Below, piece after piece: positions 21,580-51,258 of a DNA stretch of 55,581 bases. The translations under genes and the position numbers were made by a program. The notes under the pieces are model-generated. The model did no database searches, was not told the DNA's origin, and was given only the letters and a program-made list of their open reading frames with translations. The stretch comes from a virus (taxonomy: Duplodnaviria; Caudoviricetes), in the IMG/VR virus record IMGVR_UViG_3300030419_003947, positions 1 to 55,581 of that record. One strand, 5' to 3'. The stretch's first letter is position 1, and the number at the start of each line of letters is the position of its first letter.

Positions 21580-21970
21580 ACAGCGGGGGAACGACGATTC
21601 GGCGGGGGCATTATGCAACGGGGGAATCGTCTGTCAGAATCGGCCCAAAATCGTCTGTCAGACAAGTCTGTTCGTCTGTTTTGGGCCGATCAGAGCCTAA
21701 ACAGTGCGCGTCATAACGTGTGCTGTTCAGTTCAAGATTCTTTGAACGCGTCTGATGGATGATATCCATGAGAATCTGAGCCGTAGGGAACTGAACTAAG
21801 CGGCTCACCCTGCTGTCCTACGGCACCCTGTTTTGGGCCGATTGCTGTCTGTTGTCGGTCCCGAAGGCACTCTGTTGCTGGTCTGGTCTGGCTTGTCAGG
21901 CTTTTCTGAATACCATTCAGCATATATGTAAGGCCATTCTCAGCCCTCTCTGAATACCATTCAGTATATA
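21580..21970. repeat. Non-coding cluster of short direct and inverted repeats (candidate packaging/terminus or origin region)
   Basis: AATCGTCTGTCAGA x2 (21625, 21649); CTGTTTTGGGCCGAT x2 (21676, 21828) with inverted ATCGGCCCAAAA (21639); TCTGAATACCATTCAG x2 (21905, 21949). Confidence 0.75.
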
Positions 21971-22493
21971 CATAGGGACTCGACTTGAGGAACTGGATGA
22001 GGTCTATGGATACCATCCATCACGCTTGAGTGTGCCAAATGGTATTTGGAGACTTGAGGTTTGGAGTGAGGCGATCCCCAAGGGGATCAACGTGTGTAAA
22101 GCAGAGCTTGGCGTGTGTGTAGTAGTCTGGGTTGGTCGATTTTGGCGATGCAGAATTTGCAGCCCTTTTTCCTACGGAAGAGTCGAACTATCGTAGGCGC
22201 GAATCATTACTTAGATGTGCGCGTTGGATGCAAAGTTTGCTGGCCGATTTCGCTGGTTTTGTGGGATTTGCTGCAAAATCTGCACTTTCGGAATGGCCTT
22301 GCGCGGAAGCAAAGCTTCTTATGCGTGTAATCGTAGGCATGTGGGACGTACGTGGCTCTAAAGAGCCTATTCGCGTGTTGGGACTTTGGCTAATGCGTGG
22401 GCGCGAAACATATAGTCCGTGCGCGTCGTTGGGCTTTGAGATCGGCCAAAAAATATTGCGCATTATGCGAGCGGGGATTTTTGTGGATCGGGG

Positions 22494-22510
22494 CTGGCAC
22501 GGCGATTGCA
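22494..22510 (+). promoter_or_regulatory. Sigma-54 (RpoN) -24/-12 promoter; predicted TSS ~22521
   Basis: CTGGCACGGCGATTGCA matches YTGGCACG-N4-TTGCW perfectly (GG-N10-GC); intergenic and pointing into the early arm. Confidence 0.82.
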
Positions 22511-22520
22511 ACGGTAAAAG

Positions 22521-23225
22521 CTGACGGCGGACCAGTTCAACGGTTCGATCGTTTTCATCACCCCCTCGATGGAGCAAACACAGCAGCGTCCAGCAGCGAG
22601 GGAGCAGGGCAGGTCAGAGGCACTGCGGTTCGCCGACAATAGATCGGCCATCGCAGAGAGCTTGATCGGGTCCGTAGACATAGCCAGCCGAGCCGGGGTT
22701 AAAGGCCCCAGAGCAGCCGCTCGTATGAAGCAAAGCTGGTGGGTCATCCGAGGGAAGACATGATCGGTTTGACTGTGAATATGGCAAGTCGCAGTGATCA
22801 GACTCAACAGTGAATGTGGTCAAGGCACGCCACCCCGTAGCAGTTCATTTAGACTGCCGTGATCGGTGGAGCAATAGTCTCCAAGCTACACGACTAAAGG
22901 TGTAGTGAACAACGCACAACTAAAGGCGCGTTGTTTAGGACGAGGCAAACGCCATTTCGGACCTCACCAGAGGTGGATTTGGATTTCTTGACTAACAGCT
23001 TAAAAAGCTGTGCTGTGATCTTGTCCTCTATCAAATACGCCCATAGCCGAGCGGATAACCGCTCGACAGCGCGATCAATTGCGTGTTATAACGCGCTATT
23101 GATCAAGAGGCTGTGGCAGTCCAGTAGTGGCTGTCGGGTGAACAAGTTCACCGCTGTGCTAAAGCCTTGGAATTCACCATCAAGCACAGCCTTTCACATA
23201 CAGTGACTCATTAGAAGTCACACCA
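22521..23225 (+). ncRNA. Candidate large multi-stem structured RNA (~700 nt), class unknown
   Basis: More than 15 hand-paired stems, several with G-U pairs favouring the + strand and nested multibranch junctions; no credible CDS; begins at the predicted sigma-54 TSS. Confidence 0.7.
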
Positions 23226-23242
23226 CGCAAAAGGAGCCTATC

Positions 23243-23860
23243 ATGGCAACTTCCAACGTCCCCCAGATCAACCTCAACCGTGCCGTATCGACCAAGTCGA
23301 TCAAGGGCAAGGTCAACCCCAACAACCCCATGACGAAAGGTCAGGCGCGCCTGCTCTACTTCGCGGTCAAAGAACTGACGGGGGCGCGGTTGGACCTGTT
23401 CAGCGTCAACACTCCGGCTCTGGTCCACAGCGACATCACTGAGTTGTGCGGTGTGCTGTCCAAGGACAGCAACGCGACTCAGGATGAGCAGCAGTTGGCC
23501 ATTGAGATTCTGGTCAGCGACCTCCGGGTTCCGGTGCTGGAGTCGGCACCCCGTCCTGTTTCCTCTGCTGGCCGCGCCGCCGCCGCTAAAGCCCCGAGCA
23601 TCCCGGCACCAGAGGCTGGCAAGGTCGGCATCGAACCGACAGAGCCGAAGAAGATGACCAGAGCGGAGTCGCTGGCCAAGGCCAGAGCCGCCAAGAAAGC
23701 CAAGGCAGAGGCGGCCAAGGCAGCCAAGGCGGCGGCACCAGCGGCACCGAGCTTGCCCGTGGTCACCCAGACTTCTGCCGCGCCGTCTGAAAAGACTGCG
23801 GATGAGAAGCTGGCACTGTTGGTCAGCGGCATTGCGGATCTGATCAAGGCCATAGCGTAG
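23243..23860 (+). CDS. 205-aa early protein with Ala/Lys-rich histone-H1-like segment
   Basis: AAGGAG RBS; strongly C/G-ending codons; AKARAAKKAKAEAAKAAKAAAP tract. Confidence 0.85.
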   Translation: MATSNVPQINLNRAVSTKSIKGKVNPNNPMTKGQARLLYFAVKELTGARLDLFSVNTPALVHSDITELCGVLSKDSNATQDEQQLAIEILVSDLRVPVLESAPRPVSSAGRAAAAKAPSIPAPEAGKVGIEPTEPKKMTRAESLAKARAAKKAKAEAAKAAKAAAPAAPSLPVVTQTSAAPSEKTADEKLALLVSGIADLIKAIA

Positions 23861-23909
23861 CATACCAGTACCTACCGTGTATGGCCTTATCAAGGCTGTG
23901 CATGGTAGG

Positions 23910-23962
23910 GGGGTCGGGCAGATCAGCACTGTCCCTGACGAAGACCATATGGTCGAAACCCC
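23910..23962 (+). ncRNA. Type III hammerhead ribozyme; predicted cleavage after C23915 (GUC)
   Basis: GGGGUC | stem I GGGCAG-AUCAGCA-CUGUCC | CUGACGA + extra A | stem II GACC-AUAU-GGUC | GAAA-CCCC. Core nucleotides and all three stems are present. Confidence 0.88.
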
Positions 23963-24032
23963 GTCAGCTTGCTCCATAACCATGCCGTATCGACATAGTC
24001 GATTCTTGGGGAGCAATGATTCCACCACTGTT

Positions 24033-24202
24033 CCAGCAGTTTGACAGAGTCCCTTAAGGGATCTACGGTTCTTGTCCCATCAGACTGCTGGGCTAATAAG
24101 CACACCACAACTGTTCCGATAGTCTGAGATATCGCGGCTTGACACGCCACACCCCATAGTGGGCATCCGAATGGAAGCGATTAATCAGATTATTGGAACA
24201 GT
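24033..24202 (+). ncRNA. Two long stem modules downstream of the hammerhead
   Basis: 12-bp stem 24033-24044/24080-24091; 18-bp stem 24110-24127/24185-24202 capped by a four-way junction. Confidence 0.65.
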
Positions 24203-24228
24203 ATTCACACCACAGAGGGGAAACTCTG

Positions 24229-24486
24229 ATGAATTACGCAATGGTATCACGCATCAATGCCTTTGGCAGAGGACAAGTTTGGGTCTATGTGGACCTGCAC
24301 ACCCACCGCATTGCTCTGCCGTATGTATTTGAGACACAGAAACAGGCAGTTGACACAATGGGATCGCCTGTTGTTGAGTATAATCCAGACTACTGGAACA
24401 GATTGAACATATATGAGTTGGCACCCAATCCTGTTACCACACCACCTATGTCTGAATCAGACATTTCTCAGAAAGGAGCAAAATGA
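24229..24486 (+). CDS. Hypothetical early protein (85 aa)
   Basis: GAGGGG RBS before the ATG at 24229. Confidence 0.65.
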   Translation: MNYAMVSRINAFGRGQVWVYVDLHTHRIALPYVFETQKQAVDTMGSPVVEYNPDYWNRLNIYELAPNPVTTPPMSESDISQKGAK

Positions 24487-24611
24487 AAACTCCGAAGATC
24501 ATCAATGTGGCAGAGATGCTACAGAAAACCCGCCGCACCACTGCCCGTGCAGGGCAGAGATTCGTAGACAAGTCGAAGTATACCCGCAAACAGAAGCACA
24601 AAACCCTCTAA
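24483..24611 (+). CDS. 42-aa basic peptide with an ArfA-like tail (DKSKYTRKQKHK)
   Basis: Hand-translated; AAGGAG RBS; ATGA overlap with the upstream gene. Confidence 0.75.
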   Translation: MKTPKIINVAEMLQKTRRTTARAGQRFVDKSKYTRKQKHKTL

Positions 24612-37192: not shown

Positions 37193-37277
37193 TGATGGGC
37201 TTTGAGGTTTGGCATCGACTTACATTAAAACCAATCATCATCCTGCATGTCTTCGATGGCATCCTCAAAGCCCATCA
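37193..37277. terminator. Inverted repeat at the convergence of the early and late arms
   Basis: TGATGGGCTTTGAGG (37193-37207) / CCTCAAAGCCCATCA (37263-37277), plus inner CATCGA/TCGATG. Confidence 0.6.
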
Positions 37278-40200
37278 GCTTCGCCTTATCAATTAGCCTT
37301 TGCTTCATGGCACGGGCTACCTCCCTCCGCTGAAATCTCTTAGCCCTCACCACAGCATCTACATCCACACTCCTAAAGTTCAGACCCAATACTTCTCGCA
37401 GTGCTTGCTCAGTAAACTTACCTTCAGACGCTCGTTCTCCCAGCCTTGCTGCTTTACCCACTGGAGGCAGTAGTGTCTTGATTGCATGGTAGGTCTTCTC
37501 GTTGAATGGCAGTTCCATCTCTTCGCCAAAGAACTTAGCCACTGCCGCTTGATCTTGGTAGTCCTGTATATCCGAATCCAAGAAGAAGCTATAGCCTTCG
37601 CTTGGATAGATCTCAGCCCATGTCTTCAAGAAGGGAGTCATAGACGATACCATGTCCTTCATGTTGAGCCTGTTGAGATCGCCGTAGGGCAAGTCTGGCG
37701 CGAAGTATAGTGGCATACCACTGTCGTTTAACGGCAGTGCCTCAGACGTTATAGGCATCCTCATGGCGTTGATGTCATCGAAGTAATCTGGCGTGGGGAT
37801 GCCTTCCCATTCTGCTGACATCGACTCCAAGTTATGCTGTAGCTTTGGCACCATAGCATACCGCTCTGGATGTTCGGCAATAGCTTTGAACTGAAGCGGT
37901 ATGTTCTTACGCATCCATGTGTAGAAGGGGATGATAGTCTTCATGTAGTCCCGCTCAAAGGGCGTAAGCTCACCGTAATCAAACAGGTATCGCTTGACAG
38001 ACTCAGCCGCCTCATCAGCATTCATGCCCATGCCTGTGGCTTTTTTGTTGAGCAGTCCGTTTCCTTTGATTTTGCCTTTGTCCGTAATCATCATCGTGAT
38101 GAAGTGAGCAAGGCGAGCGTTGTTTTCCATCTGCTGGCCAAAGTTTCTGTTGGCGCGAGTGAACATGTTATCGCCAAGCATTCCATAAGCTCTACTGAAA
38201 AAGCTTTCCTTTTCAGAGGTTGCCGTTCCAAGTAAGGCTCGTGCCGTTGCCATTGTTTCTGGCTCTGTCTCTGCGCCACGACCAAGAATGTTTTGAAAGA
38301 GATAATTGGTTTCCTCATCTGGAGTCAGTCCTACCGACCCTCCGTTGGAGAAGTCGTAGACCGTATCCATCATCTCTTTCATGTATTCAAACGTACCCTG
38401 CATGGCCCTGCCAGCGTTCTTATCTGTAGTGCCTTCCAATAAGAACTGCTCAAAGCCCCTCGCAAACTCTTCCTCCCCGTCTACGGTCCAGACAAACCTC
38501 TCCATCAACTGCGTTGCCATCTCATCAATGTCTATCTCAGCATCGGGTGCCATCCGCGCAGCATCTGTGGCTTGCTCTAACATCTCTGCGCGTACCCTGT
38601 TGTATTGATTCTCGCCCAAGATCCATCGATGGATGATATCCTTATCGCCTTCGTCCAGCATCGTGCGCCTAATCAAATGCGCTAGCTCATGGATATAGGT
38701 AGTTGGGTTTGCTCCCTCTGTTACCAAGATATCGGCTCTGCCATCATCTAAGAAATTAATGGCACCATACAGTCCATCTTCTCCATGCTGCTCCATGAAT
38801 TTGGGAGTGCTTAAATCCCATGACCCTACGTTTTCAATAGACTTAATTTGGTTAGGCTTATAGGCCACTCCAACTTGATGAAACAAGCCCGTCGCATCGT
38901 TGGTTCCACCAGCATGAGTAATCCCATCGTATCCTGCTCTTATCATAGCTTGAGATACCAGCCAATCGGCAGCATAGCTACCACCAGCTTCTAATCCCCA
39001 ACCCATTTGATCTGTTAATTTTCCAAACAATTCTTCATCGTTTGCGTCACGAACTAGTGTGCCAGTGAGATCTAGTCTATTAGCCGCATCGCCAAGATAG
39101 TCCATATGATCATCACTGCTTACAGCTAAATACTTAGTAAAAGAATCTGGATGTGACGTAACATCTTGTATAGCTTGCGGCAAAAACCCCTCCCCACTAT
39201 AACGACCAAGTCCCAAGTAGTGCGCTCTAGTTAAATAAAGATCGTCCCTGTTTCTCTGACCCATGCCTATGGGCTTGTTCAGTTCTTTCTGGCTGGGATC
39301 TCTCGGACCCAAACCCATTTCGTTCCAGTACGTGTCTTCCCATTCATCCCAAAATCTCACCCAGTCATCCTCAATTTGTTCGTTAAAATGTTTATAAAAA
39401 TAATTATAAAATTCTTTGGGATCTTTGTCTGGACTAAAAAAAGCTTTTACGCTTTCTTCTACTCCTCCTGCCTCTGCTTCTCGTTTTGCTATTGATGGAG
39501 CATGTAAATCATATAAGTCATTCCATACAATTTGCTGATTTCCCCCTAGCCCCTTGCTCTGTTCTAAGTTGCCAAAGGCTCTACCCATGTCAACAATGTT
39601 GTCTACCGTCACATCCCTGCCATCTACCTTACCACTCTTGCCTCCAACATATTTTATCGCAAGCTCTGTATACCTATCAAGTTCTTCTTTTGTGGTAAAA
39701 ACCTCTTTGTTAAAAAGGTCAAGGTCTTCGTCTGATTTGAAAACTCTTGCAATACCTTTAGGTACCTTGCCCTTGACATAGGGCTTTCTATTAGAGCCAA
39801 TGCTAATCCATAGCTCATCAATGCTTTTAGCAGACCGACCATACTGACCCATATCCATTGCCTGCAATTGCCGTGAATCGAATCCCGCTCTCCAATCAGC
39901 AATATTGATATTTCCAGCGGCTTCCATAGCGGCATTGGTATATATAGACGCAAGTGTTTCAGCAGTAGCAGTGTTTATATTCTCTATTTCATGTTCAAAA
40001 GCCTCTTTACTAAAAGTGGTTTCCATCCTGCCTAATGTGCCAAAAGCTTGCCCTGTCTGTGCCGATGGATTTTTTACCTCCTCTCCCATCCGCAGTGCTT
40101 TGAAGGAACGACCATCATCACTAACCATACTTAACGCATACGGTTTTTTAGCAAACCAATGAAAGCCAAGAACTTCTGGTTCATTACCATACACGTTAAG

Positions 40201-43200
40201 TTGATCTTTTAAGTCAATTATTCTTTTGCCCCATTGATTCTCATATCGTTCCAATGCTACGATCTCACGCAACACCTCATCTTCTGGAGGTTTAACCCTT
40301 ACGTATCTCTCCCCTTTTTGTCGTGCATATTCAAATTTAGGAACAACGGATAGGTCTAATTCTCCAGTAGCTGTTTGAGTAGCAACACCCTCAACTGCTT
40401 GCCAATCTGGATCTTCAATGTAGTACTCGTCGTATGCTTTTCTTAAAACTTCAGTGAAGTCCTTCTCTACATTTTTTAAAGATGTCGGCAACGAATAAAC
40501 TGACGTTCCTCGCCCTGCCTTTCCTTCTGCCAATTCATCTTCTATTTGTTGACGCGCAAGAATATATGTTCTGTATTTTGTCTTCAATGGACCTTCTGGA
40601 ATTTCATCTAACAACTCCCCTGCCCTCTGTCTTACTTTCTGTAACTGCTCTGGACTAGGCCCAACGGGATCCCAAGGAGATCCACTTATTAATTGCTTGG
40701 GCAGCAAGTCGTCATGTCCAAATCGCTTCATCTCATCTGCTAATTCGGGGATGCTTTCATAAAAGCCACGAGTCTCTCCCACACTTGCTCCCGGCACTCC
40801 ACTTTGTTGCGCCCTTAACTGACCTTGGTATGCTGCTACGCCCATCGGATCCCATCCGACATCTGCCATTGGTTGATGTAACATGTATCCAGTAGTTACC
40901 TGCGGCCCTCTTTCTTTAGCATATGGTAAAAAATCCATAGTCATATAGAATCCCGGTCCCATATACTGACTGTACGTTACTGTTGGATCTATTTCTCCCT
41001 CCTTCCTTATCGTTGCGCCATAGTTTGTTCCATGCAAAAATACAGGCAGTATACCTTGTTCATCTTTAAAGAAAGTTCCTTCTGCTGCTTTCTGAAAATT
41101 AGGATTGCTATAGTCAACCTTACTTATGCCGGGAATGCTGGTCTGATGTAAGAAGTCAGACCCTGCCTCTGGCACTCCAGCCGTAGGAACGGTATACGCT
41201 TTGATCTCTCGTATACGATTCTCATACCATTCCTCTGGTGTCTTCCAGTTTTTCCATGCCCATGCTCTGGCGATAACGTCATACGCCTCTGCCGTCTTCT
41301 GCGCCTGTTCCTCCGTAAGATCCCCTCCTGCCCTTTGCACTGCGCCAAACAAAGACTGTGATACGTTGGCTATACGTGCGCTCCTGTCTCCCCAATCCGC
41401 TAGCCCCTCAGAGATGTCAGTAGTCGTAGGCTTCCCTTCACGCAACTGAAGGTTGGTCATTAGCTCTTCGCCAATGCCAAGGTCAGACTCATTGTAGATC
41501 ATCCCCGCCTGTGTTACCCCTCTCTCATCTGCCATCTGCTTGATCTCTGCGCCTGACACTCTGGTGCCATCTGGCAAGTCAAACTTATAGTCTGCTGCCG
41601 TCCTTCGTCCTCCAAGGATACGCTCAATCTTAGAGCGCACAGCCCTGCTCCCGATGTTTTTGGTATCGCCAACCTGTAGCAGCATCGCCTCTGCATACCG
41701 CTTCGGATTGGTAACGCCAGCCAAATAATTATTGAAGATGTTGGAGTAGAGGTTACGCATATGATAGCCGGGGCTGAGAAGAGCATAGGCCTTCCACAGA
41801 CCCTGCACCTGTCGGAAGGTGCTGACCAGTACATTGGTATCGTCGCTACCTGTTATCAACTTGGTCATATCATCCAACTGCTCTTTCATAGCAGATGGTA
41901 TGGCATAGTATATATTATCTTCGCCTTTAGCTTGCTTGGTCTGCTTGCGAACAGAGAGGGCTGGGGCTTTCCATATGGCCATGCCGCTTTCTTTAAGCAT
42001 TTGATGGGTAGGATCACGTAGGTTCTCTGCTACGACTTGGTCAATAGGCACTGCTATACGAGTATCGGATATAATTGTGTCGTAGAACTTCTGCGTATTA
42101 ACCTTCTTAATAGACTCCATGCCACGCCTCGTTGCCATGAGCGCAGCATTCGTTTCCGTAGGCACAAGGTCTTGAAGGCGCGATTCCAAGGTGGGATACT
42201 TCTTGGCATAGGAGGCTTTCATTATGCCATTCTCAGTAATCGTAGCGATGCCGTCTTGCGTTGCCTTCTCATACATGGCACTGCCAGCATCTTTACCAAA
42301 CCGCACCTTAAACATGTTCTCTACGATGGCACGGGACAGTTCGGTGACGGGTTCCATGCCAGCAGAATAGTTGGCTCTGAACTGCGCCTTGTCCAATAGA
42401 CCGACAGCTTCTTCCTCTTCAAAGATCTTATTGAACATATCCTTCCACTCAGCAACCCCCTTAGAAATCACCTGCTTCGTAGCATCGTCCACCTTAAGCT
42501 GATTGATCAGTCCTTGCACAACATCTGGCTGGTCAAGATAAGCCCCCACCAGACGCAACTCTCCCTCATTCATATCAGCAGCGATCTTCAAGATGTTCTC
42601 TCGCAACGCCACTGTCTGCAACGATATAGCTGAATCCTTGCGGATCTGCTGCGCCATAAAATCAACTGTGCCTTCTTTTACATCCTCCGCAGTGACAGCC
42701 TTTGTCCCTTGATCCCCGCTCAGTCGATTAATCGTATCGGCTATCTCCTCTGCTTGATACCCTTCCTTCAATCCCTTCATCAAAGAGTTAGGCATGAAGA
42801 GTCTACGATATGTTTTACCAGCTTCTGAGTTGGTAACAAGGTCGCTTATCCTGCGCGTTCTGGTTGCAGCACCAGCTACCTCATCCAACTTGCCTATGCC
42901 CACAGCTACCTTGCCCAGCCCAAAGCCAAACCATGTCGTGGGATCTAACAGCACATCTGCTACAAACCCTGCTGCGGCTACTGCATATGGATTGGCATCG
43001 TCCATCGTCAGTGCCGTTTCTCCCCGCTTGCCTTCAAATATATCTGCGAATGTAGTGCGCCTTGCCCCCTCTTGATCAATACCTATGGCATTGAGAAACT
43101 CTTCCCCCGCCTGTTGCAAGCCAGCAATAGGACTACCCGTTAGCAAATATTCTTCAAGCCCACCAGCAACGGAATAGTTTCCTACAGAAAGAAAGTCAAA

Positions 43201-43629
43201 CACAGGTTCGATGACATCATCAAAGCCCCAATCATCATCTTCTGCGGCTACTGCTGCTTCAAACTCTTCGTTCAATCCAATCTGCTTAAATAGCTCTACA
43301 TTCCTATCGACCTCTGTTATCGCGCCCAACTCAGCAGTATCCTGTCGGGGCAGACGCTGTGCCGTTGTAAAGCCAGACCCCGGCATTGCGCGAGATGGCA
43401 CACGGGGTTCTATCTGACCAAAGCCCATTTCATCTTCTTCTTCTTCAAATGGATCAATGGTTTTGCGGGTCAGAAAAGATCCTATGATATCATCATAGGG
43501 CATAGCGATGCTGTCATTATAAGCAGAGTCAAACCCGTTAGAAAAAATACTTGTACTATTGGGACTGTCTAAAAAGATTCCACTGTTGGAACCCAAAGCC
43601 TCATCAAATCCCTTGGCAAAAATACTCAT
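37225..43629 (-). CDS. Giant polyvalent ejection-type protein (2134 aa) with HExxH metallopeptidase-like and ART-like motifs
   Basis: IHELAH; FLHGT...GPGFYMT...AGYDG...PNQIKS; C-terminal IPFYTWMRKN motif; last late gene. Confidence 0.75.
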   Translation of the reverse strand: MSIFAKGFDEALGSNSGIFLDSPNSTSIFSNGFDSAYNDSIAMPYDDIIGSFLTRKTIDPFEEEEDEMGFGQIEPRVPSRAMPGSGFTTAQRLPRQDTAELGAITEVDRNVELFKQIGLNEEFEAAVAAEDDDWGFDDVIEPVFDFLSVGNYSVAGGLEEYLLTGSPIAGLQQAGEEFLNAIGIDQEGARRTTFADIFEGKRGETALTMDDANPYAVAAAGFVADVLLDPTTWFGFGLGKVAVGIGKLDEVAGAATRTRRISDLVTNSEAGKTYRRLFMPNSLMKGLKEGYQAEEIADTINRLSGDQGTKAVTAEDVKEGTVDFMAQQIRKDSAISLQTVALRENILKIAADMNEGELRLVGAYLDQPDVVQGLINQLKVDDATKQVISKGVAEWKDMFNKIFEEEEAVGLLDKAQFRANYSAGMEPVTELSRAIVENMFKVRFGKDAGSAMYEKATQDGIATITENGIMKASYAKKYPTLESRLQDLVPTETNAALMATRRGMESIKKVNTQKFYDTIISDTRIAVPIDQVVAENLRDPTHQMLKESGMAIWKAPALSVRKQTKQAKGEDNIYYAIPSAMKEQLDDMTKLITGSDDTNVLVSTFRQVQGLWKAYALLSPGYHMRNLYSNIFNNYLAGVTNPKRYAEAMLLQVGDTKNIGSRAVRSKIERILGGRRTAADYKFDLPDGTRVSGAEIKQMADERGVTQAGMIYNESDLGIGEELMTNLQLREGKPTTTDISEGLADWGDRSARIANVSQSLFGAVQRAGGDLTEEQAQKTAEAYDVIARAWAWKNWKTPEEWYENRIREIKAYTVPTAGVPEAGSDFLHQTSIPGISKVDYSNPNFQKAAEGTFFKDEQGILPVFLHGTNYGATIRKEGEIDPTVTYSQYMGPGFYMTMDFLPYAKERGPQVTTGYMLHQPMADVGWDPMGVAAYQGQLRAQQSGVPGASVGETRGFYESIPELADEMKRFGHDDLLPKQLISGSPWDPVGPSPEQLQKVRQRAGELLDEIPEGPLKTKYRTYILARQQIEDELAEGKAGRGTSVYSLPTSLKNVEKDFTEVLRKAYDEYYIEDPDWQAVEGVATQTATGELDLSVVPKFEYARQKGERYVRVKPPEDEVLREIVALERYENQWGKRIIDLKDQLNVYGNEPEVLGFHWFAKKPYALSMVSDDGRSFKALRMGEEVKNPSAQTGQAFGTLGRMETTFSKEAFEHEIENINTATAETLASIYTNAAMEAAGNINIADWRAGFDSRQLQAMDMGQYGRSAKSIDELWISIGSNRKPYVKGKVPKGIARVFKSDEDLDLFNKEVFTTKEELDRYTELAIKYVGGKSGKVDGRDVTVDNIVDMGRAFGNLEQSKGLGGNQQIVWNDLYDLHAPSIAKREAEAGGVEESVKAFFSPDKDPKEFYNYFYKHFNEQIEDDWVRFWDEWEDTYWNEMGLGPRDPSQKELNKPIGMGQRNRDDLYLTRAHYLGLGRYSGEGFLPQAIQDVTSHPDSFTKYLAVSSDDHMDYLGDAANRLDLTGTLVRDANDEELFGKLTDQMGWGLEAGGSYAADWLVSQAMIRAGYDGITHAGGTNDATGLFHQVGVAYKPNQIKSIENVGSWDLSTPKFMEQHGEDGLYGAINFLDDGRADILVTEGANPTTYIHELAHLIRRTMLDEGDKDIIHRWILGENQYNRVRAEMLEQATDAARMAPDAEIDIDEMATQLMERFVWTVDGEEEFARGFEQFLLEGTTDKNAGRAMQGTFEYMKEMMDTVYDFSNGGSVGLTPDEETNYLFQNILGRGAETEPETMATARALLGTATSEKESFFSRAYGMLGDNMFTRANRNFGQQMENNARLAHFITMMITDKGKIKGNGLLNKKATGMGMNADEAAESVKRYLFDYGELTPFERDYMKTIIPFYTWMRKNIPLQFKAIAEHPERYAMVPKLQHNLESMSAEWEGIPTPDYFDDINAMRMPITSEALPLNDSGMPLYFAPDLPYGDLNRLNMKDMVSSMTPFLKTWAEIYPSEGYSFFLDSDIQDYQDQAAVAKFFGEEMELPFNEKTYHAIKTLLPPVGKAARLGERASEGKFTEQALREVLGLNFRSVDVDAVVRAKRFQRREVARAMKQRLIDKAKLMGFEDAIEDMQDDDWF

Positions 43630-45762: not shown

Positions 45763-48700
45763 TTAATTGAATCGTGAAGACATCTCATTCATGTCTGTTT
45801 CTACGTAATGCGACCTCTTAAATGACCCCTTACTAAAGTCTTGATCAAAAAACAAAATGCCCTCATCGTCCACTACCATGACTTCTGGAAAATATTTATT
45901 TGTTAAGTCTAACTCAACCATATCGTCTATTGATAAATCCAACGCTACACCTAATGCCAACCTATCCAATCGACTTTTATTTCTATCATTAAGTTCATCG
46001 TAGGGCTTGCTTACAAAAGTATCAAAATGAGGTAGTTTATCCCACTCCCACAGAATTTCACCTTCTGCTTCTTGCTCTGCTTCCCTGTCTGTGTAATTCA
46101 TCATCTGCTCATGGATAGCCTCTCCAGCCCCTTCCACTGCTCCACTCGGCGTTGCCGATTGTTCTATCAAAGGCTCTGTAGACATCACCCTCCTGCCCGT
46201 TCTTTGCATAAACTCATCAAGGGGTTCATCGTAAGTTCCTTTGACTCCACCTTGCCCACCCGCAGCGGTCCATCGGGCAACGCCATCTGCCCAGTGAAGA
46301 TACAATCCCGGCTGAGATCCTATGTTTACTGGATCTCCATCTTTGTCTACTGGATTAGGAGGATAGAAGTTCTTCGCATACTGCCTTGGAAACGTAACTC
46401 CCGCATCCTTCCATAATTCTTCTCTCGCTCCACCAAAGAACTCCCATGTCTTATAGGCAGCTATTGCGGTGCCAACAGCAACTGCGAGTGGTCCCACGTA
46501 AGGAGATATTTTAGCTCCCAAAGCATTAAGCTTTGGATTGCCCTGTAAAACATTTTGCACATAACTTACATTTGGGTCCCATTCATACATTGAGTCTACG
46601 CCCCACATCTTGCCAGCCCAATCCAGCCCCGGCACATCTCCCGGCAATGGTATATCATCCACAGGTAGCCCTGTGAGTCTGTCTATGACCTTACCTGTCA
46701 CCGGATCTATTACTGTTTCGGTTACTTCTTCAAAAAAAAAATCCCCAAAAGTATCCTTTATTTTATCACCTATTTTATTCCCTATTTCATCGCCAAATTC
46801 TCTTGTCAACCAGTCTACACCGAAACTAGTTACAGATTCTAATACCCCCGGTTGATCGTCAAACAGCCCTCCTTGCTTTCCTCCACCAAGACTAGTCGCT
46901 CCATTCAGCAGTGCCATGTGTGCTGCAAACTGCCTTACGGCATCCTCGTCATCCCAATCAATACCTTCACCAGTTTCGGGATCCCATAACATCTCCCAAG
47001 TGCTGTCCCTATGGTCTTCTTTCTTTTGAAAGGCTTCCATTTGGTTTATGAAGTGCTGAAGCTCTTGCTCTGACAAGTCATTCTCTAGTGCCATAGCTTG
47101 AAGCTGCTCTTCAAACAACGCATCGCCATGCCTTAAAGCTTGCAATACTTGTTGTTCATCCAATCCAAACTCTGCTGCCCACTGTGCCGCAGCATTATCT
47201 AACGATTCACCTCGCAACCTAACATCTTGCTCCACTTGCCACTTGACCATTAGGAACTCTTCTTCCTTCAGCCCAAATTCTTTTGCTGCTTGCTCTGTAG
47301 AGAAAGCCCATTCCGTTTCCCAACGATCATTAAGCGTTTCAAACTCCTTTACCGACAACTCCATCTGCTCTGCAAACTTGAACATATCATTGGCTCTATC
47401 CAAGTTCTGTTGTTCTATCTGGATAGCAAGCTGCTCTCGCCTAAACGCCATCTCTTCTTCAGTGGCCTCTCTGCCAGCCTCAATCTCTACGCCTCTCAGT
47501 CGTAGATTTTCCCAAGCAATGGCATTTTCATCATCCATCTGCTCAATCGTTAGATTCAACCTTGCCTTCTGATCTGCTATATCAGCATTTGTTCTAGCAA
47601 TGAGGGCTTCTGTTTCACGCAAGCTCAAATCGTGAGTTTTGGCAAACTCCTCCATTTGCTGATTTAACTGTTGCGTAAATTGCTCAGACGATGCAGCTAA
47701 ACGATCTGCCTCTATGTCCAATCCTCTTTCCCGTAGCTCTATTTCTCTAGCAGCATTCGTTGCTGCCAAAGTAGGAACGGTTTCGCCATTAACGTCAATG
47801 TAATAGCCTAGCCTATCTGCCAATGCCATTTGTTCTTGAAAAGCCCGTGCTGCTTCGGCATTGTCCATTGAGGTCTTTTCAAGGGCAAGACGTTCTTCGC
47901 TTAAGTTCATCTCACGATTCATATTCTGAATCTGTGCAGCCGTCATGTTTTCTGTTATGACCAGACCACGTTCTTCTAATGCAAATCTTTTTTCATCAGA
48001 CAGCTTTTGATACTCAAGCTCCAACTCATCTTGGGTAATACGAGCATTGGCAACCAGCTCTGCCGTTGCTATTTCTCTGTCCCTCTGATCAAGACCTCGC
48101 TCTGCCAATAGCTTGTCGGTATAATATCTTTTCTCTTCCAAGCTGTATTGCTGATTGAACTGTATTTCTTCAAAAGCCAATTGCTGAGTCGCAAGATCTA
48201 AGCGACCCACCTCAATCATCTCATCCAAGATAAGCTTTCGCTCCTCAAGGCTTATCCTTTCACCTTCTTGCTCCAGCCTTGCAAAACCCAGCGTTGACTC
48301 GTATTCAAGCCGTGCCTCCTCCAACTCGCGCTCAAGATTCATTTGTTCGCGTCTTAAGGAAGCCTCTTGATCTAATTCTTCCTCCCTAAGAGCAAGCTCA
48401 TCTCTTCTAAGTTGGAGGTTGTTTTCCATCTCTTCACGACGAATCGCAAACTCTTGATCTGTTTCTCCTGCGCGTTGCACCATCTGCTCTCGCGCAAGCT
48501 CTGCTTCTTGTTCTAGCTCATCACGGCGTAAGGAGATTTCTTCACTAAGCTCTTCTCTTCTAAGCTCAAACTCCTCATCGCTTTGGGCCAGCCGCTGCGC
48601 CATCTCATCGCGCCGTATGGCAAACTCCTCTGCTGACTCATCTGCCCTCTGCGCTAGTTCCGCTTCTACTAAATCTACTCTCCTGCTTTCAATGTCCAGC

Positions 48701-51258
48701 GACCTACCCTGCTGATCAACCCGCCTTCCCTCTATGTCTAATCCAGCCTCGCGTAACTCAATATCATTTGATGCTATAAACTGTTCCAGATCTAATCGTC
48801 TGGTTTCCAAAGCCATGCGATTATTGATCTCGCCTTCTTGGAGTTTTAACTCTAGATCTGCGCGTCTATCGGCACTTTGTGCCAAGTAGTTACTAACAGA
48901 TATCTGCTCTATTTCAGCAGCGGCAAGATCTCTGCGTATCGCCAACTCATCTGTTCCCAGTAGCGTATCAAGGGCAAGACGCCTTTCCTCTACGTCCATC
49001 CCCGCACGACCCATAATCTCATCTAATGCCACGCGCCGCTCTTCAAGGTCCATCCCACCCAGACCCAATGCCTCTTCCAGATTAAACCTCTTGGCCTCTA
49101 GGTTTAACTGCTTGATGCCAAGAAGCTCATTAAGAGCCTGTGCCTTCTCTTGTATCGTAAGCTCTCTATCTGCTATCTTTGCTTCTAAGTCCAGACGCTT
49201 CTTATCAAGCTCTATACGAGACAGCACCTCGCGCATCGCCAGCGTTTCTTCGCCATCCAGATTACCCGTAAGCTCTGCTTCTCGTAGTCTCTCATCGGCC
49301 CTAGTCCGATAGTCTTCAATGTCCAAGGAACGAGCTTCTAACCCAAGGCGGTCTTCTGCTACATCGGCAGCGCGAGTTCCCAGACGAATCTCTTCAAGGG
49401 AAACAACAAAATCCAATAATTGTTGAGTGGTATCTATACGTACACGCTGCTCTTCTATCGCTTCTTCTGCACGACTACGCTTGATATTTTCAAACAACTG
49501 CAAGGTTTCACGCAGTTCAGCGCGATACTTCTCACCTACATCTAGCTCTGCTTGTATTAATTCAGTGGCACGGGCAGACTCAAGTTCCTCTGCTTGGCGA
49601 ATGGTAACGCCAGATGCAGAAATTCCCCCGCCTTCTATTAGCCCTAATCGGCCCAGACGCTCTAAGGCATCGTCATATTTATTATTAATGAGAGTAGTTG
49701 TTTTTTCGAGGATCTCTTGCTCATCAATGGCAATGCTATTGATGATGTTCTCCATAGAGATTTCTATCCCAGCCTCTGCCTCCCGGCCAAAGGTCAATTC
49801 CGCATCGGTATCCTCAAAAACTCTAGTGGACTGAGCTAAAGATTGGGATAGAATGTCATCTATGTAGTTATCAATAATATTTGATGCAGACTCTATGCTT
49901 AATATGGCATCAAGATCTGCTCCATAGTCTTCAAAAACACCAACTATGGTACTTCTGACTTCATCTACTTGAGAAACATCAGAAAAATCCACATCCTCTA
50001 TTAGCCGCAATATCTCATTTACGGCATTGTCCATGTCCTCGACGGCATCATTGGCAGGAACTACCTCATTGCCAGCAACATCCACTACAACGGCTGGTTC
50101 GTCTGCTACCGCTGGCTCTTCTGCTACCACTGGCTCTTCTGTTACTACTGGCTCTTCTGTTACTGCTGGCTCTTCTGTTACTGCTGGCTCTTCTACTATC
50201 TCTAGATCTTCTGCTTCTGCTTCTTTCTTTTCCTTTTTTTCCTTTTCCTTGCGCAATCTTTCAGCTTCAGCTTCAGCTTCATCGTCCAACTCACGTTGCG
50301 CTCTGCCAGTTAAAAAGGCAGCCAAGTCAGCTGCATTTGCCTTTGCATCTTCTATAGAAGCACCAGACTGCAACAATATATCTGCTGCCCGTTCAGTTAA
50401 ATCTCCTCCTTCGGCAACAACGGATTTAAATTTTTTATAATTATTAGTTACTAAGTCTCCTGCTACGTCCAGATACTTCCACGTATACGCATCAGCATCA
50501 GCATCAGCATCAGCATCAGCATCAGCATCGCCATCAACATCAACATCAGCATCAGCATCGCCATCGCCATCGTCTGAAACCAATCCATCTGCTGCTCTCT
50601 GAGCGGCGTAATAAGCGTCAGAGCTAAGATAATTATTTACCATCTTCCCTAAGTCGGAATCTTCGGCAAAGATGGCATTCATATCTATATCTGTCCTATA
50701 CGGACTTTCCTCAAGCAATCCTACAATTTCATTATATCTTTCTTGGCGAAGAGCCTCTGCTTCAGTTACAACAGATTCGCTTCCTTCCTCAACAACTTCT
50801 TCTACTACTTCAGGCTCTTCCCATACCAATAACTCAGCGTTCCATACCGATGTGTCAGTGGGAGGAGGGGTATATACACCGTCTGATCCATACCCATCCC
50901 CCACCGTAACTACAACTTCCCCTTCATCGTCATCGTCCTCCTCGTCTAAATCGTCAAAGGTAGCCGCTGTTCCATTGCTGGCAGCAACAGGACCGGGAAC
51001 AATAGGATTTAAGCCTTGGGATACGCGGGAATACTCCTCTGGCGTAAATACACCACCCTCAGTTGGGACATAGGTACGATCTATTATCATATCCCTATCA
51101 TATAGATCTAGTAGTCCAGCCCGATCATATAGAGTTTCTAATTCCTGCCAATCACTTTCTATTTTGTTAGGATTAGTCCCTCCCCTGAGCTTTTCTTCTA
51201 TCTCACGCTTCTTCCTGCCAGCGCGATCTCGCCAGACTGTACCTGTTGCCATTGCCAT
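45763..51258 (-). CDS. Giant acidic coiled-coil protein (1831 aa), putative ejection protein
   Basis: ~900 aa of E/R/L periodic coiled-coil sequence; hydrophobic segment VGPLAVAVGTAIAAY near the C-terminus. Confidence 0.65.
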   Translation of the reverse strand: MAMATGTVWRDRAGRKKREIEEKLRGGTNPNKIESDWQELETLYDRAGLLDLYDRDMIIDRTYVPTEGGVFTPEEYSRVSQGLNPIVPGPVAASNGTAATFDDLDEEDDDDEGEVVVTVGDGYGSDGVYTPPPTDTSVWNAELLVWEEPEVVEEVVEEGSESVVTEAEALRQERYNEIVGLLEESPYRTDIDMNAIFAEDSDLGKMVNNYLSSDAYYAAQRAADGLVSDDGDGDADADVDVDGDADADADADADADAYTWKYLDVAGDLVTNNYKKFKSVVAEGGDLTERAADILLQSGASIEDAKANAADLAAFLTGRAQRELDDEAEAEAERLRKEKEKKEKKEAEAEDLEIVEEPAVTEEPAVTEEPVVTEEPVVAEEPAVADEPAVVVDVAGNEVVPANDAVEDMDNAVNEILRLIEDVDFSDVSQVDEVRSTIVGVFEDYGADLDAILSIESASNIIDNYIDDILSQSLAQSTRVFEDTDAELTFGREAEAGIEISMENIINSIAIDEQEILEKTTTLINNKYDDALERLGRLGLIEGGGISASGVTIRQAEELESARATELIQAELDVGEKYRAELRETLQLFENIKRSRAEEAIEEQRVRIDTTQQLLDFVVSLEEIRLGTRAADVAEDRLGLEARSLDIEDYRTRADERLREAELTGNLDGEETLAMREVLSRIELDKKRLDLEAKIADRELTIQEKAQALNELLGIKQLNLEAKRFNLEEALGLGGMDLEERRVALDEIMGRAGMDVEERRLALDTLLGTDELAIRRDLAAAEIEQISVSNYLAQSADRRADLELKLQEGEINNRMALETRRLDLEQFIASNDIELREAGLDIEGRRVDQQGRSLDIESRRVDLVEAELAQRADESAEEFAIRRDEMAQRLAQSDEEFELRREELSEEISLRRDELEQEAELAREQMVQRAGETDQEFAIRREEMENNLQLRRDELALREEELDQEASLRREQMNLERELEEARLEYESTLGFARLEQEGERISLEERKLILDEMIEVGRLDLATQQLAFEEIQFNQQYSLEEKRYYTDKLLAERGLDQRDREIATAELVANARITQDELELEYQKLSDEKRFALEERGLVITENMTAAQIQNMNREMNLSEERLALEKTSMDNAEAARAFQEQMALADRLGYYIDVNGETVPTLAATNAAREIELRERGLDIEADRLAASSEQFTQQLNQQMEEFAKTHDLSLRETEALIARTNADIADQKARLNLTIEQMDDENAIAWENLRLRGVEIEAGREATEEEMAFRREQLAIQIEQQNLDRANDMFKFAEQMELSVKEFETLNDRWETEWAFSTEQAAKEFGLKEEEFLMVKWQVEQDVRLRGESLDNAAAQWAAEFGLDEQQVLQALRHGDALFEEQLQAMALENDLSEQELQHFINQMEAFQKKEDHRDSTWEMLWDPETGEGIDWDDEDAVRQFAAHMALLNGATSLGGGKQGGLFDDQPGVLESVTSFGVDWLTREFGDEIGNKIGDKIKDTFGDFFFEEVTETVIDPVTGKVIDRLTGLPVDDIPLPGDVPGLDWAGKMWGVDSMYEWDPNVSYVQNVLQGNPKLNALGAKISPYVGPLAVAVGTAIAAYKTWEFFGGAREELWKDAGVTFPRQYAKNFYPPNPVDKDGDPVNIGSQPGLYLHWADGVARWTAAGGQGGVKGTYDEPLDEFMQRTGRRVMSTEPLIEQSATPSGAVEGAGEAIHEQMMNYTDREAEQEAEGEILWEWDKLPHFDTFVSKPYDELNDRNKSRLDRLALGVALDLSIDDMVELDLTNKYFPEVMVVDDEGILFFDQDFSKGSFKRSHYVETDMNEMSSRFN
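50093..50200 (-). repeat. 18-bp coding tandem repeat (EEPAVT) x~6
   Basis: Repeated TGGCTCTTCTGTTACTGC units. Confidence 0.9.
50488..50572 (-). repeat. Hexamer microsatellite (GCATCA)n encoding a (DA)n tract
   Basis: Consecutive GCATCA units plus degenerate GCCATC/ACATCA units. Confidence 0.9.

What the first reader, a model, noticed from the sequence alone, without database searches (positions are those of the whole stretch)
22494..24213. Candidate new RNA system: sigma-54 promoter -> ~700-nt ornate RNA -> Ala/Lys-rich protein -> hammerhead ribozyme
Seen in sequence, on one strand and in order: a perfect RpoN promoter (TSS ~22521); ~700 nt of almost continuously paired non-coding sequence; a 205-aa ORF with strong RBS, strong codon bias and an H1-like AK tract; a complete hammerhead 50 nt after its stop; then two more long stems before the next gene. 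Established: phages carry giant structured RNAs (GOLLD, ROOL) and hammerheads. Inference: self-cleavage at 23915 would release a discrete ~1.4-kb RNA (structured RNA plus its own basic protein ORF) from the early polycistron, possibly a ribonucleoprotein or decoy made at the start of infection. I do not recognise this arrangement as a described system.
Basis: partly seen in the sequence, partly recalled or inferred. Interest (0 to 1): 0.92.

Follow-up and report, generated by a model that had tools for sequence, protein, structure and literature searches.

The report
Sigma-54 leader RNA, orphan gene, hammerhead
A small group of uncultured marine phages keeps a self-contained unit made of a sigma-54-type promoter, a new roughly 720-base folded RNA, one orphan basic protein gene and a self-cutting hammerhead RNA, and what the unit does is still unknown.

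Summary
The window is a complete 55.6-kb uncultured phage.

- **Promoter:** the sigma-54 box (22495-22509) occurs in 11 of 11 related sources that reach far enough upstream. Only its spacer varies.
- **Leader:** the 722-nt leader has no conserved frame. 41 of 136 predicted pairs carry compensatory changes, against 18.8 in shuffles. Two pseudoknot helices add to this.
- **Gene:** the 205-aa protein is real but an orphan, with 3 cluster representatives among 1.84 billion.
- **Hammerhead:** a type III hammerhead that would cut after C23915 is in 12 of 12 sources reaching downstream. Stems I and II covary. A loop 1-loop 2 tertiary pair switches A-U (5) to U-A (4). One extra A or U follows A9, and Rfam's models miss it.

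No Rfam family matches anything here. The most likely reading is a ribozyme-ended ~1.4-kb RNA with hairpin-protected ends. The role of the leader is open, and there was no transcript or cleavage data. First-stage notes of this scan flagged the same RNA in another genome.

The parts
22149..22161 (.). Candidate activator or operator palindrome 1 (TGCA-N5-TGCA)
   Evidence: Three such sites fall within 136 bp, against 8 other positions in the remaining 55 kb. The site is conserved in 7 of 7 lineages. Its function is inferred.
22229..22241 (.). Candidate palindrome 2 (TGCA-N5-TGCT)
22272..22284 (.). Candidate palindrome 3 (TGCA-N5-TGCA)
22495..22509 (+). Sigma-54-type -24/-12 promoter box, with a predicted start near 22521
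   Evidence: 1 match against 0.09 expected. Present in 11 of 11 sources that reach at least 637 nt upstream of the ATG. TGGCACGG and ATTGCAA are invariant in 7 lineages; only two spacer positions vary, and the flanks are poorly conserved.
22523..22553 (+). 5'-terminal hairpin of the predicted transcript
   Evidence: In 7 of 7 lineages a hairpin starts 2-3 nt after the predicted start, although the sequence differs between lineages.
22563..23229 (+). Conserved multi-domain structured leader RNA (core)
   Evidence: Of 136 pairs in 26 helices, 96.4% of cells are paired, against 33-43% when the partner is slid. 41 pairs carry double changes, against 18.8 +/- 2.6 in shuffles. Long-range helices include 22751-54/23026-29, 22783-98/23009-25 and 22807-25/22986-23002. 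G-U cells number 137 and A-C cells 17.
23108..23178 (+). Double pseudoknot: 23108-23112 pairs with 23163-23167, and 23137-23141 pairs with 23174-23178. The 3' partners lie in the loop of hairpin 23153-23190.
   Evidence: Found by my stack scan (8 stacks, 6 of them already in the predicted fold; 0.15 per column-shuffled alignment). Counted: 100 of 100 cells paired, and 5 of 10 pairs have double changes.
23190..23236 (+). CCUUU (23190-23194) can pair with AAAGG of the ribosome-binding site AAAGGAG (23230-23236), enclosing hairpin 23203-23221
   Evidence: The helix is in the minimum-energy fold of 4 of 6 lineages, in the centroid only (3 pairs) for the window, and absent for L005. L005 has CUCCU and AGGAG instead. 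The helix is weak (4-5 bp) and tentative.
23243..23860 (+). Gene for a 205-aa orphan protein (conserved N-terminal domain, Ala/Lys-rich helix, C-terminal amphipathic helix)
   Evidence: 36 homologues at 59-95% identity. One search gives the alignment. Searches found no Pfam or PHROG family. One search found 3 representatives in 1.84 billion.
23871..23909 (+). 18-bp hairpin (P0) directly 5' of hammerhead stem III; it would be the 3'-terminal hairpin of the upstream cleavage product
   Evidence: 18 pairs, 97.5% of cells paired, 3 pairs with double changes. Also in the folds.
23910..23962 (+). Type III hammerhead. Stem III 23910-14/23958-62; cut after C23915; stem I 23916-21/23929-34; core CUGACGA 23935-41; extra A 23942; stem II 23943-46/23951-54; GAA 23955-57
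   Evidence: Present in 12 of 12 sources that reach downstream.
23962..23967 (+). CGUCAG, complementary to core CUGACG (23935-40); a possible alternative helix after cleavage
   Evidence: Present in 9 of 9 distinct sequences and shifted by 2 nt in L006. The 3' product 23916-23968 folds into it with frequency 0.85. No covariation is possible, so this is inferred.
23969..24202 (+). Three stem-loops (23969-24016, 24033-24091, 24110-24202) before the next gene. Their number and sequence vary between lineages.
   Evidence: z = -7.3 for 23861-24232. One search shows that the modules differ in number between loci.

Best explanation
This is a self-contained transcription unit kept by one clade of uncultured marine phages.

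Inferred steps:
1. Host RNA polymerase with sigma-54 starts at about 22521. It is presumably switched on by a host activator, because the phage encodes neither sigma-54 nor an activator ATPase.
2. The RNA begins with a protective hairpin.
3. It then folds into a ~670-nt multi-domain, pseudoknotted leader whose 3' end abuts, and weakly pairs with, the ribosome-binding site of the single gene.
4. Fifty bases after the stop codon a type III hammerhead cuts after C23915.
5. The upstream product (~1395 nt: leader plus gene) then ends in an 18-bp hairpin followed by GGGGUC with a cyclic phosphate.
6. The downstream product starts with a 5'-OH and refolds so that the core is locked in a CUGACG/CGUCAG helix.

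The ribozyme thus makes the 3' end of the leader-gene RNA and separates its fate from the downstream genes. I take the leader to act in cis, as a large conformational gate or protein-binding platform for translation of the orphan protein. This last step is the weakest.

Shown here: the conservation, the base pairing and the strand of the RNA. Inferred: initiation, cleavage, end protection and the role of the leader.
For: - **Unit integrity:** the sigma-54 box is in 11 of 11 sources and the hammerhead core in 12 of 12 sources that reach far enough, out of 17 sources examined. The distance from stop codon to core is fixed at 75-78 nt, while the sequence after the ribozyme varies. In L013 the next gene follows almost at once.
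- **Promoter:** it is an island of invariance with a variable spacer. A 5' hairpin sits 2-3 nt after the predicted start in 7 of 7 lineages. No PF00158 or PF04552 is encoded in the phage.
- **Leader structure:** 41 of 136 pairs carry double changes, against 18.8 +/- 2.6 in shuffles (0 of 500 reach it) and 3-13 when slid. Leaving out the two 3' helices whose alignment register is unsure, 35 of 127 pairs remain. Two extra pseudoknot helices are 100% paired, and 5 of their 10 pairs covary. The scan gives 0.15 false stacks per shuffle.
- **Strand:** G-U cells 137 against A-C cells 17.
- **Selection:** against lineages L016 and L012, nucleotide identity is 81% and 79% for the leader and 89% and 89% for the hairpin plus ribozyme, but 68% and 75% for the gene.
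- **Hammerhead:** core CUGANGA, GAAA and GUC are invariant in 9 of 9 distinct sequences. Stems I and II each have one pair with a double change. The tertiary pair between the 5' base of loop 1 and the 3' base of loop 2 is A-U in 5 and U-A in 4 sequences. That is the contact described for natural hammerheads in the abstract of PMC2632901. My descriptor gives 1 hit in the window, 0 in 100 shuffles, and only true copies in 749 kb of related phage DNA.
- **Folding:** 23870-23968 has the hammerhead as its minimum-energy fold, and the 3' product refolds.
- **Precedent:** hammerheads that flank genes in prophages, with the proposal that they process long phage transcripts (PMC3088659, passages).
Against: - There are no RNA data. 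No transcript end, cleavage or expression was seen (one search listed no run).
- Rfam's hammerhead models do not report the site, either at E<=10 on a 91-nt stretch or with RF00008 over the whole phage. The core carries one extra base after A9, so activity is not assured.
- Stem III never varies, so it has no covariation support.
- In the long context 23861-24232 the minimum-energy fold is the inactive alternative. Cleavage would have to be co-transcriptional.
- A sigma-54 box can be bound without firing. PMC4591121 reports widespread inactive intragenic binding (title and start of abstract in the listing only). No activator site could be assigned, and the host is unknown; the closest cultured TerL is 47.7% identical.
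- The pairing with the ribosome-binding site is only 4-5 bp. It is absent from the minimum-energy fold of 2 of 6 lineages. Its counts are inflated by a shifted alignment register for the window, L006 and L003.
- The sequences come from about 7-9 related lineages. Shuffle controls therefore overstate significance.
Confidence: 0.55

Rival explanations
1. The leader is a free-standing functional RNA, in the manner of the large ornate phage-associated RNAs (an assembly-forming, scaffold or decoy RNA). The gene merely shares its transcript. The hammerhead serves to release the RNA in a defined size.
For: The RNA is more conserved than the gene. Many unpaired junction bases are invariant. It has a multi-domain, pseudoknotted architecture. 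Its size and phage setting resemble GOLLD and ROOL, which form RNA-only assemblies (bioRxiv 10.1101/2024.12.08.627333, listing and start of abstract only). The pairing with the ribosome-binding site is weak.
Against: RNA and gene were never found apart in the loci I could examine. No ribozyme or terminator separates the leader from the gene, so the RNA stays attached to an mRNA. No Rfam model of a large RNA matches.
Confidence: 0.25
2. The RNA and the Ala/Lys-rich protein it encodes assemble into a ribonucleoprotein. The protein binds its own leader, for autoregulation or as a particle.
For: RNA and gene co-occur strictly, and both are clade-specific. The protein has a basic Ala/Lys helix and a conserved N-terminal domain of no known fold. 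CUAAAG-type loops recur in the leader.
Against: There is no evidence of binding. The model of the protein is poor (pLDDT 54). Basic Ala/Lys tracts bind DNA as readily as RNA.
Confidence: 0.12
3. The conservation reflects DNA-level functions of the control region between the two phage arms, such as an origin, a packaging site or operators. The sigma-54 box would then be a non-productive binding site, and the hammerhead-like motif would be inactive.
For: The region lies between divergent gene blocks next to the terminase genes. Conserved palindromes lie upstream. Sigma-54 sites can be silent (PMC4591121, listing only). Rfam models miss the ribozyme.
Against: Nested helices join bases up to about 270 nt apart in the window and carry compensatory changes. 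The strong excess of G-U over A-C cells fits RNA of the + strand, not duplex DNA. The tertiary loop-loop covariation is specific to hammerhead RNA.
Confidence: 0.05

Closest known systems
Type III hammerhead ribozymes in phage and prophage transcripts (Rfam RF00008; Perreault et al. 2011, PMC3088659)
   Same: The core CUGANGA / GAAA / GUC, the three helices, the open stem III, the loop-loop contact and the position between phage genes are shared. The proposed role in cutting long phage transcripts is the same (passages).
   Different: One extra A or U lies between A9 and stem II. The site is not reported by the Rfam models. It is a single ribozyme tied to the 3' end of one conserved gene and directly preceded by an 18-bp hairpin, rather than several ribozymes flanking variable genes.
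CChMVd (+) hammerhead with an extra A after A9 (De la Pena and Flores 2001, J Biol Chem)
   Same: An additional base sits at the same place in the core. As I recall the paper, A or U there is tolerated. This family has A in 3 and U in 6 of 9 sequences.
   Different: CChMVd is a plant viroid RNA and this is a DNA phage. I saw only the paper's title in reference lists. The paper is not held, so its content is recalled and unchecked.
GOLLD and ROOL large ornate RNAs of phages and prophages
   Same: Size of several hundred bases, many helices and junctions, phage setting and unknown function.
   Different: There is no match to their Rfam models. This RNA is a 5' leader fused to an mRNA and has a sigma-54-type promoter. 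It was found only in one narrow phage clade.
Sigma-54-dependent non-coding RNA genes of bacteria (Qrr with LuxO; GlmY/GlmZ with GlrR)
   Same: A -24/-12 promoter with upstream palindromic activator sites drives an RNA whose job is regulatory. GlmY/GlmZ: PMC3045617, listing only. Qrr and the LuxO site are recalled.
   Different: Those RNAs are short and chromosomal. Here TGCA-N5-TGCA sites lie 210-360 bp upstream, and their spacing does not fit the LuxO or NtrC sites as I recall them. No activator was identified.
RiboJ-type synthetic ribozyme insulators (recalled)
   Same: A type III hammerhead plus a hairpin cuts a transcript so that neighbouring parts no longer influence each other.
   Different: RiboJ is engineered and sits 5' of the gene it serves. 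Here the conserved linkage is to the upstream gene's 3' end.

Membership tests
Hammerhead ribozyme, type III | Conserved core C3 U4 G5 A6 N7 G8 A9 ... G12 A13 A14, an A15.1-U16.1 pair, and a cleavage triplet ending in H17 (GUC) | tested here: met
   CUGACGA, GAAA and GGGGUC are invariant in 9 of 9 distinct sequences.
Hammerhead ribozyme, type III | Three helices around the core: stems I and II closed by loops, stem III open | tested here: met
   Stems I, II and III are 100% paired. Stem I has 1 pair with a double change and 2 with single changes. Stem II has 1 double and 1 single. Stem III never varies.
Hammerhead ribozyme, type III | Loop 1-loop 2 tertiary contact (5' base of loop 1 with 3' base of loop 2; heptaloop 1) | tested here: met
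   Loop 1 has 7 nt. The pair is A-U in 5 and U-A in 4 of 9 sequences. The motif is taken from the abstract of PMC2632901.
Hammerhead ribozyme, type III | A9 directly followed by the G10.1-C11.1 pair of stem II | tested here: not met
   One extra base follows A9: A in 3 and U in 6 of 9 sequences. It is therefore a core variant.
Hammerhead ribozyme, type III | Score at or above the gathering score of Rfam RF00008 | tested here: not met
   No hammerhead family is reported at E<=10 on 23895-23985. RF00008 over the whole phage gives 0 matches at E<=10.
Hammerhead ribozyme, type III | Self-cleavage that yields a 2',3'-cyclic phosphate and a 5'-OH | not testable with these tools
   This needs an in vitro transcription and cleavage assay.
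Sigma-54 (RpoN) dependent promoter | GG at -24 and GC at -12 in the consensus TGGCACG-N4-TTGCW | tested here: met
   Perfect match at 22495-22510. Invariant except for 2 spacer positions in 7 lineages.
Sigma-54 (RpoN) dependent promoter | Upstream binding sites for an AAA+ activator, and the presence of such an activator | tested here: inconclusive
   Three conserved palindromes lie 210-360 bp upstream, but no known activator site was recognised. The phage has no PF00158. The host is unknown.
Sigma-54 (RpoN) dependent promoter | Transcription start about 12 nt after the GC that depends on rpoN | not testable with these tools
   No RNA run was listed. The only indirect support is a 5' hairpin 2-3 nt after the predicted start in 7 of 7 lineages.
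Known large structured RNAs in Rfam (GOLLD, ROOL, HEARO, OLE, IMES, group I/II introns, RNase P, riboswitch aptamers) | Match to the family covariance model | tested here: not met
   0 matches at gathering score in the window. Only two unrelated chance-level rows appear at E<=10 in 21800-24600.
Translational leader that occludes the ribosome-binding site | A conserved helix that pairs the ribosome-binding site, with covariation | tested here: inconclusive
   The CCUUU/AAAGG helix is in the minimum-energy fold of 4 of 6 lineages. One lineage has CUCCU/AGGAG. The helix is only 4-5 bp, and the counts are unreliable there.

The most novel reading that the evidence does not exclude
The ~720-nt leader is a new class of giant RNA device. 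It would be a pseudoknotted sensor or assembly platform, made only when a host sigma-54 activator fires, cut free with its own mRNA by a variant hammerhead. It would then either gate translation of the basic protein it carries or assemble with that protein into a particle that acts on the host at a chosen physiological state. On this reading, sigma-54 promoters paired with hammerheads are a recurrent, undescribed way for phages to build autonomous RNA modules.
Probability: 0.2. Interest if true: 0.85.

Novelty: new variant of a known kind. Interest (0 to 1): 0.62.

Why it matters
- **A new large RNA.** The leader is a covariation-supported structured RNA of about 700 nt with long-range helices and pseudoknots, and it matches no Rfam family. 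RNAs of this size with this much support are rare, and each has so far pointed to unexpected biology.
- **A clear natural role for a hammerhead.** The ribozyme appears to make a hairpin-capped 3' end for one specific RNA. The extra A or U in the core and the swapped tertiary pair make this family a ready-made natural mutant series for ribozyme work.
- **A host signal read by a phage.** If the sigma-54 box is active, part of the phage programme depends on an enhancer-dependent host factor and so on a host signal. My searches found no paper that describes this for phages.

Limits: the family is narrow, the host is unknown, and nothing has been shown at the RNA level.

Tried and rejected
- **Rfam.** The whole window at gathering score gave nothing. 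The region at E<=10 gave only MEG8 and snoRNA chance rows. The 91-nt ribozyme stretch gave one 9-bit twister-P5 row. RF00008 gave nothing.
- **Protein.** Pfam and PHROGs found no family. The AlphaFold model was poor (pLDDT 54). Foldseek against PDB gave no row at E<=0.001. The VIA wide search gave a best Z of 4.5. The Atlas gave no usable hit. The PDB profile search found only low-complexity rows.
- **Coding frames.** The 130-aa frame at 22132-22524 and the frames inside the leader were rejected as genes: the frame is broken or shifted in relatives.
- **Wider distribution of the RNA.**
  - Two exact-pattern scans of viral contigs found only the same clade.
  - Bacterial and archaeal genomes gave 0 for the protein and 0 for an RNA pattern.
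  - nhmmer over 83 loci hit only contigs whose TerL is at least 83% identical.
  - Covariance model R1 was run over 76 of those 83 loci plus the window; the 7 known carriers were left out. It matched only the window, plus two weak rows at E 0.048 and 0.75.
  - INPHARED phages by DNA gave no match.
- **RNA evidence.** No RNA holder was listed.
- The contigs of most of the 36 protein homologues could therefore not be fetched, and the alignments stayed at 9-10 sequences.
- **Ideas considered and dropped.**
  - Circularisation of the excised RNA: there is only one ribozyme, and the 5' end would be a triphosphate.
  - A trans-cutting role suggested by another note of this scan: stem I is closed by a loop. 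Not tested further.
  - Assigning the palindromes to LuxO or NtrC: as I recall their sites, the spacing does not fit.
- **Host.** The closest cultured TerL is only 47.7% identical, so no host was inferred.
- **Papers.** The supplementary figures of PMC3088659 (core variants) could not be seen and may show a similar insertion.
Full report
**What the window is.** The window is a whole IMG/VR virus record of 55,581 bases, rated complete by CheckV. Structural and terminase genes run leftwards from about 21.5 kb. Small genes run rightwards from about 22.5 kb. The finding lies at the start of the rightward arm. No cultured phage is close: the best TerL match is 47.7% identical, and there is no DNA match in INPHARED. 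The host is unknown.

**Relatives.** I therefore fetched loci with the search for related loci: 1 locus with the single protein, 3 viral loci with the alignment and 13 metagenome loci. They collapse to 7 distinct lineages upstream of the gene and 9 distinct sequences downstream of it.

**Promoter.**
- TGGCACGGCGATTGC (22495-22509) is the only match to TGGCAC-N5-TTGC in the window. 0.09 are expected, and 9 of 100 shuffles had one.
- Of 17 sources examined, 11 reach at least 637 nt upstream of the ATG, and all 11 carry the box, 637-748 nt before the ATG.
- In the 7-lineage alignment TGGCACGG and ATTGCAA are invariant. Only two spacer positions vary. The 40 bases on either side are poorly conserved. 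That pattern is expected of a -24/-12 promoter.
- Each of the 7 lineages has a hairpin of different sequence starting 2-3 nt after the predicted start. This fits a protected 5' end.
- The phage encodes no sigma-54 DNA-binding domain and no sigma-54 activator ATPase.
- Three conserved TGCA-N5-TGC(A/T) palindromes lie 210-360 bp upstream. Whether they bind a host activator or a phage repressor is open.

**Leader RNA.**
- Between 22521 and the ATG at 23243 no reading frame is conserved.
- A 10-sequence alignment gives an RNAalifold consensus of 136 pairs, 40 of them with compensatory double changes.
- Counting the same structure gives 96.4% of 1286 cells paired. 41 pairs carry double changes, against 18.8 +/- 2.6 in 500 shuffles (none reaches it) and 3-13 when partners are slid by 1-3 columns.
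- The register of the window, L006 and L003 is shifted in the last 60 columns. Without helices 25 and 26, 35 of 127 pairs remain.
- The fold has a long 5' hairpin (22608-22672) and a three-way junction (22683-22740). A large domain is closed by helices that join bases up to about 270 nt apart in the window: 22751-54/23026-29, 22783-98/23009-25 and 22807-25/22986-23002.
- Hairpin-sized insertions and deletions distinguish lineages.
- My scan for perfectly paired stacks with at least two covarying pairs found 8 stacks. Six were already in the consensus. Column-shuffled alignments gave 0.15 per run.
- The two new stacks are 23108-12/23163-67 and 23137-41/23174-78. They are paired in 100 of 100 cells, and 5 of their 10 pairs covary. 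They interleave and use the loop of hairpin 23153-23190, which makes a double pseudoknot just upstream of the ribosome-binding site.
- The second new stack competes with the predicted helix 22741-49/23136-44, which has no double change. That part of the fold may switch between pairings or may be mis-predicted.
- G-U cells outnumber A-C cells 137 to 17, so the + strand RNA is the folded molecule. The structure was predicted on that strand, which favours this result somewhat.
- Against the two most distant full lineages the leader is 81% and 79% identical, while the gene is 68% and 75%.

**Ribosome-binding site.** CCUUU (23190-94) can pair with AAAGG of AAAGGAG (23230-36). The helix appears in the minimum-energy fold of 4 of 6 lineages and in the centroid only (3 pairs) for the window. 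It is absent for L005, which has CUCCU and AGGAG instead. With 4-5 pairs this is a weak and tentative occlusion.

**Gene.** The protein alignment shows a strongly conserved N-terminal domain (residues ~25-100), a conserved KMT-x-A-x-SLAKARAAKKAKA helix, a variable spacer and a conserved C-terminal amphipathic helix. Indels come in whole codons. It has no family, fold or name. A profile search of 1.84 billion cluster representatives found 3.

**Hammerhead.**
- The sequence reads GGGGU-C / GGGCAG-AUCAGCA-CUGUCC / CUGACGA-A / GACC-AUAU-GGUC / GAA-ACCCC. This is a type III hammerhead that would cut after C23915.
- Twelve of the 17 sources reach more than 100 nt past the stop codon. All 12 have the core, 75-78 nt after the stop.
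- Across 9 distinct sequences all three stems are 100% paired. Stem I has a G-C to A-U change and stem II a G-C to A-U change in 3 sequences. Stem III is invariant.
- The 5' base of heptaloop 1 and the 3' base of tetraloop 2 are A and U in 5 sequences and U and A in 4. The two states occur on both types of flanking hairpin sequence. This is the loop-loop pair reported as shared by many natural hammerheads (PMC2632901, abstract).
- One extra base follows A9: A in 3 sequences and U in 6. I recall that the CChMVd (+) hammerhead has such an A and that A or U is tolerated there, but I saw only that paper's title.
- Rfam's models do not report the site.
- My own descriptor finds this one site in the window, none in 100 dinucleotide shuffles, and only true copies in 749 kb of related phage DNA.

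**What the ribozyme is attached to.**
- An 18-bp hairpin (23871-23909; 3 pairs with double changes) abuts stem III on the 5' side.
- After the cut, the upstream RNA would end in this hairpin plus six bases.
- The distance to the upstream stop codon is fixed, whereas the downstream sequence varies in content and length. The ribozyme therefore belongs to the upstream unit.
- CGUCAG (23962-67), present in 9 of 9 sequences, complements core CUGACG.
- The uncut RNA 23870-23968 folds as a hammerhead. The 3' product folds into stem I plus the CUGACG/CGUCAG helix with frequency 0.85.
- In the 372-nt context the alternative helix is already in the minimum-energy fold. Cleavage would have to occur during transcription.

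**Downstream.** Three stem-loops precede the next ATG at 24229. CACACCAC occurs 6 times in the window against 1.06 expected, and 4 of the copies lie at 23219-24445 just before ribosome-binding sites.

**Distribution.** The leader and ribozyme were found only in contigs whose TerL is at least 83% identical. They were not found in 185,579 species genomes by pattern or by protein.

**Known work and novelty.**
- Hammerheads in phage intergenic regions, and their proposed role in cutting long phage transcripts, are in print (PMC3088659 and PMC6155905, passages).
- My searches for sigma-54 promoters in phages and for GOLLD or ROOL together with hammerheads listed no paper on an arrangement like this one.
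- First-stage notes of this scan flag the same RNA and unit in another genome (e1-6303826, e1-6303827). Follow-up notes report sigma-54-type promoters, once paired with hammerheads, in other uncultured phages (e1-6013660, e1-5736303). I treat these as leads only.

**Verdict.** The ribozyme is a new core variant of a known kind in a known setting. The leader is a new RNA family of unknown function. The sigma-54 promoter is well supported by conservation but untested. I rate the most likely mechanism, a ribozyme-ended and hairpin-capped 1.4-kb RNA whose leader acts on its own gene, at about 0.55.

Noticed in passing
window 23219-23226, 24101-24108, 24206-24213, 24438-24445 (+): CACACCAC occurs 6 times in the window against 1.06 expected. 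Four copies cluster on the + strand, each just after a hairpin and 5-35 nt before a ribosome-binding site of an early gene. It could be a translation enhancer or a processing signal.
   Followed up: partly
window 23969-24202; loci L004, L008-L011 downstream of the hammerhead: Long hairpin modules (arms such as CUGUUCCAAUAGUCUGGGA / UCCCAGAUUAUUGGAACAG), each followed by CACACCAC, occur in different numbers (0 to about 3) in different lineages. They may be RNase III-type processing sites or small mobile repeats.
   Followed up: partly
window 22149-22284: Three conserved TGCA-N5-TGC(A/T) palindromes lie within 136 bp, 210-360 bp upstream of the sigma-54 box. They could be activator sites or phage operators.
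   Followed up: partly
window 22440-22490: Directly upstream of the promoter every lineage has an A-run, a short hairpin of variable sequence, another A-run and a T-run. This could be a weak leftward terminator or intrinsically bent DNA standing in for an IHF site.
   Followed up: no
L042 about 2110-1250 (- strand): A phage whose TerL is 51% identical also has a perfect sigma-54 box (TGGCACGATTATTGCA) pointing away from the terminase genes. It is preceded by a direct repeat of GGGACCAGTGAAT. About 850 nt with only short, unverified frames of 58-92 aa follow. There is no sequence or model similarity to this leader, beyond a chance-level row elsewhere in L042 (E 0.75), and no hammerhead by my descriptor.
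   Followed up: partly
window 23137-23141 with 22744-22749, 23147-23152 or 23174-23178: GGUGA has three possible partners (UCAUCC, UUCACC, UUCACC). Only the pairing with 23174-23178 covaries in both L003 and L004. This hints at alternative conformations near the ribosome-binding site.
   Followed up: partly
window 37225-43629, 45763-51258 and other large genes: Seven of the ten large proteins tested, including those of 2134 and 1831 aa, match no PHROG family at E<=1e-5. The phage as a whole is far from described ones.
   Followed up: no
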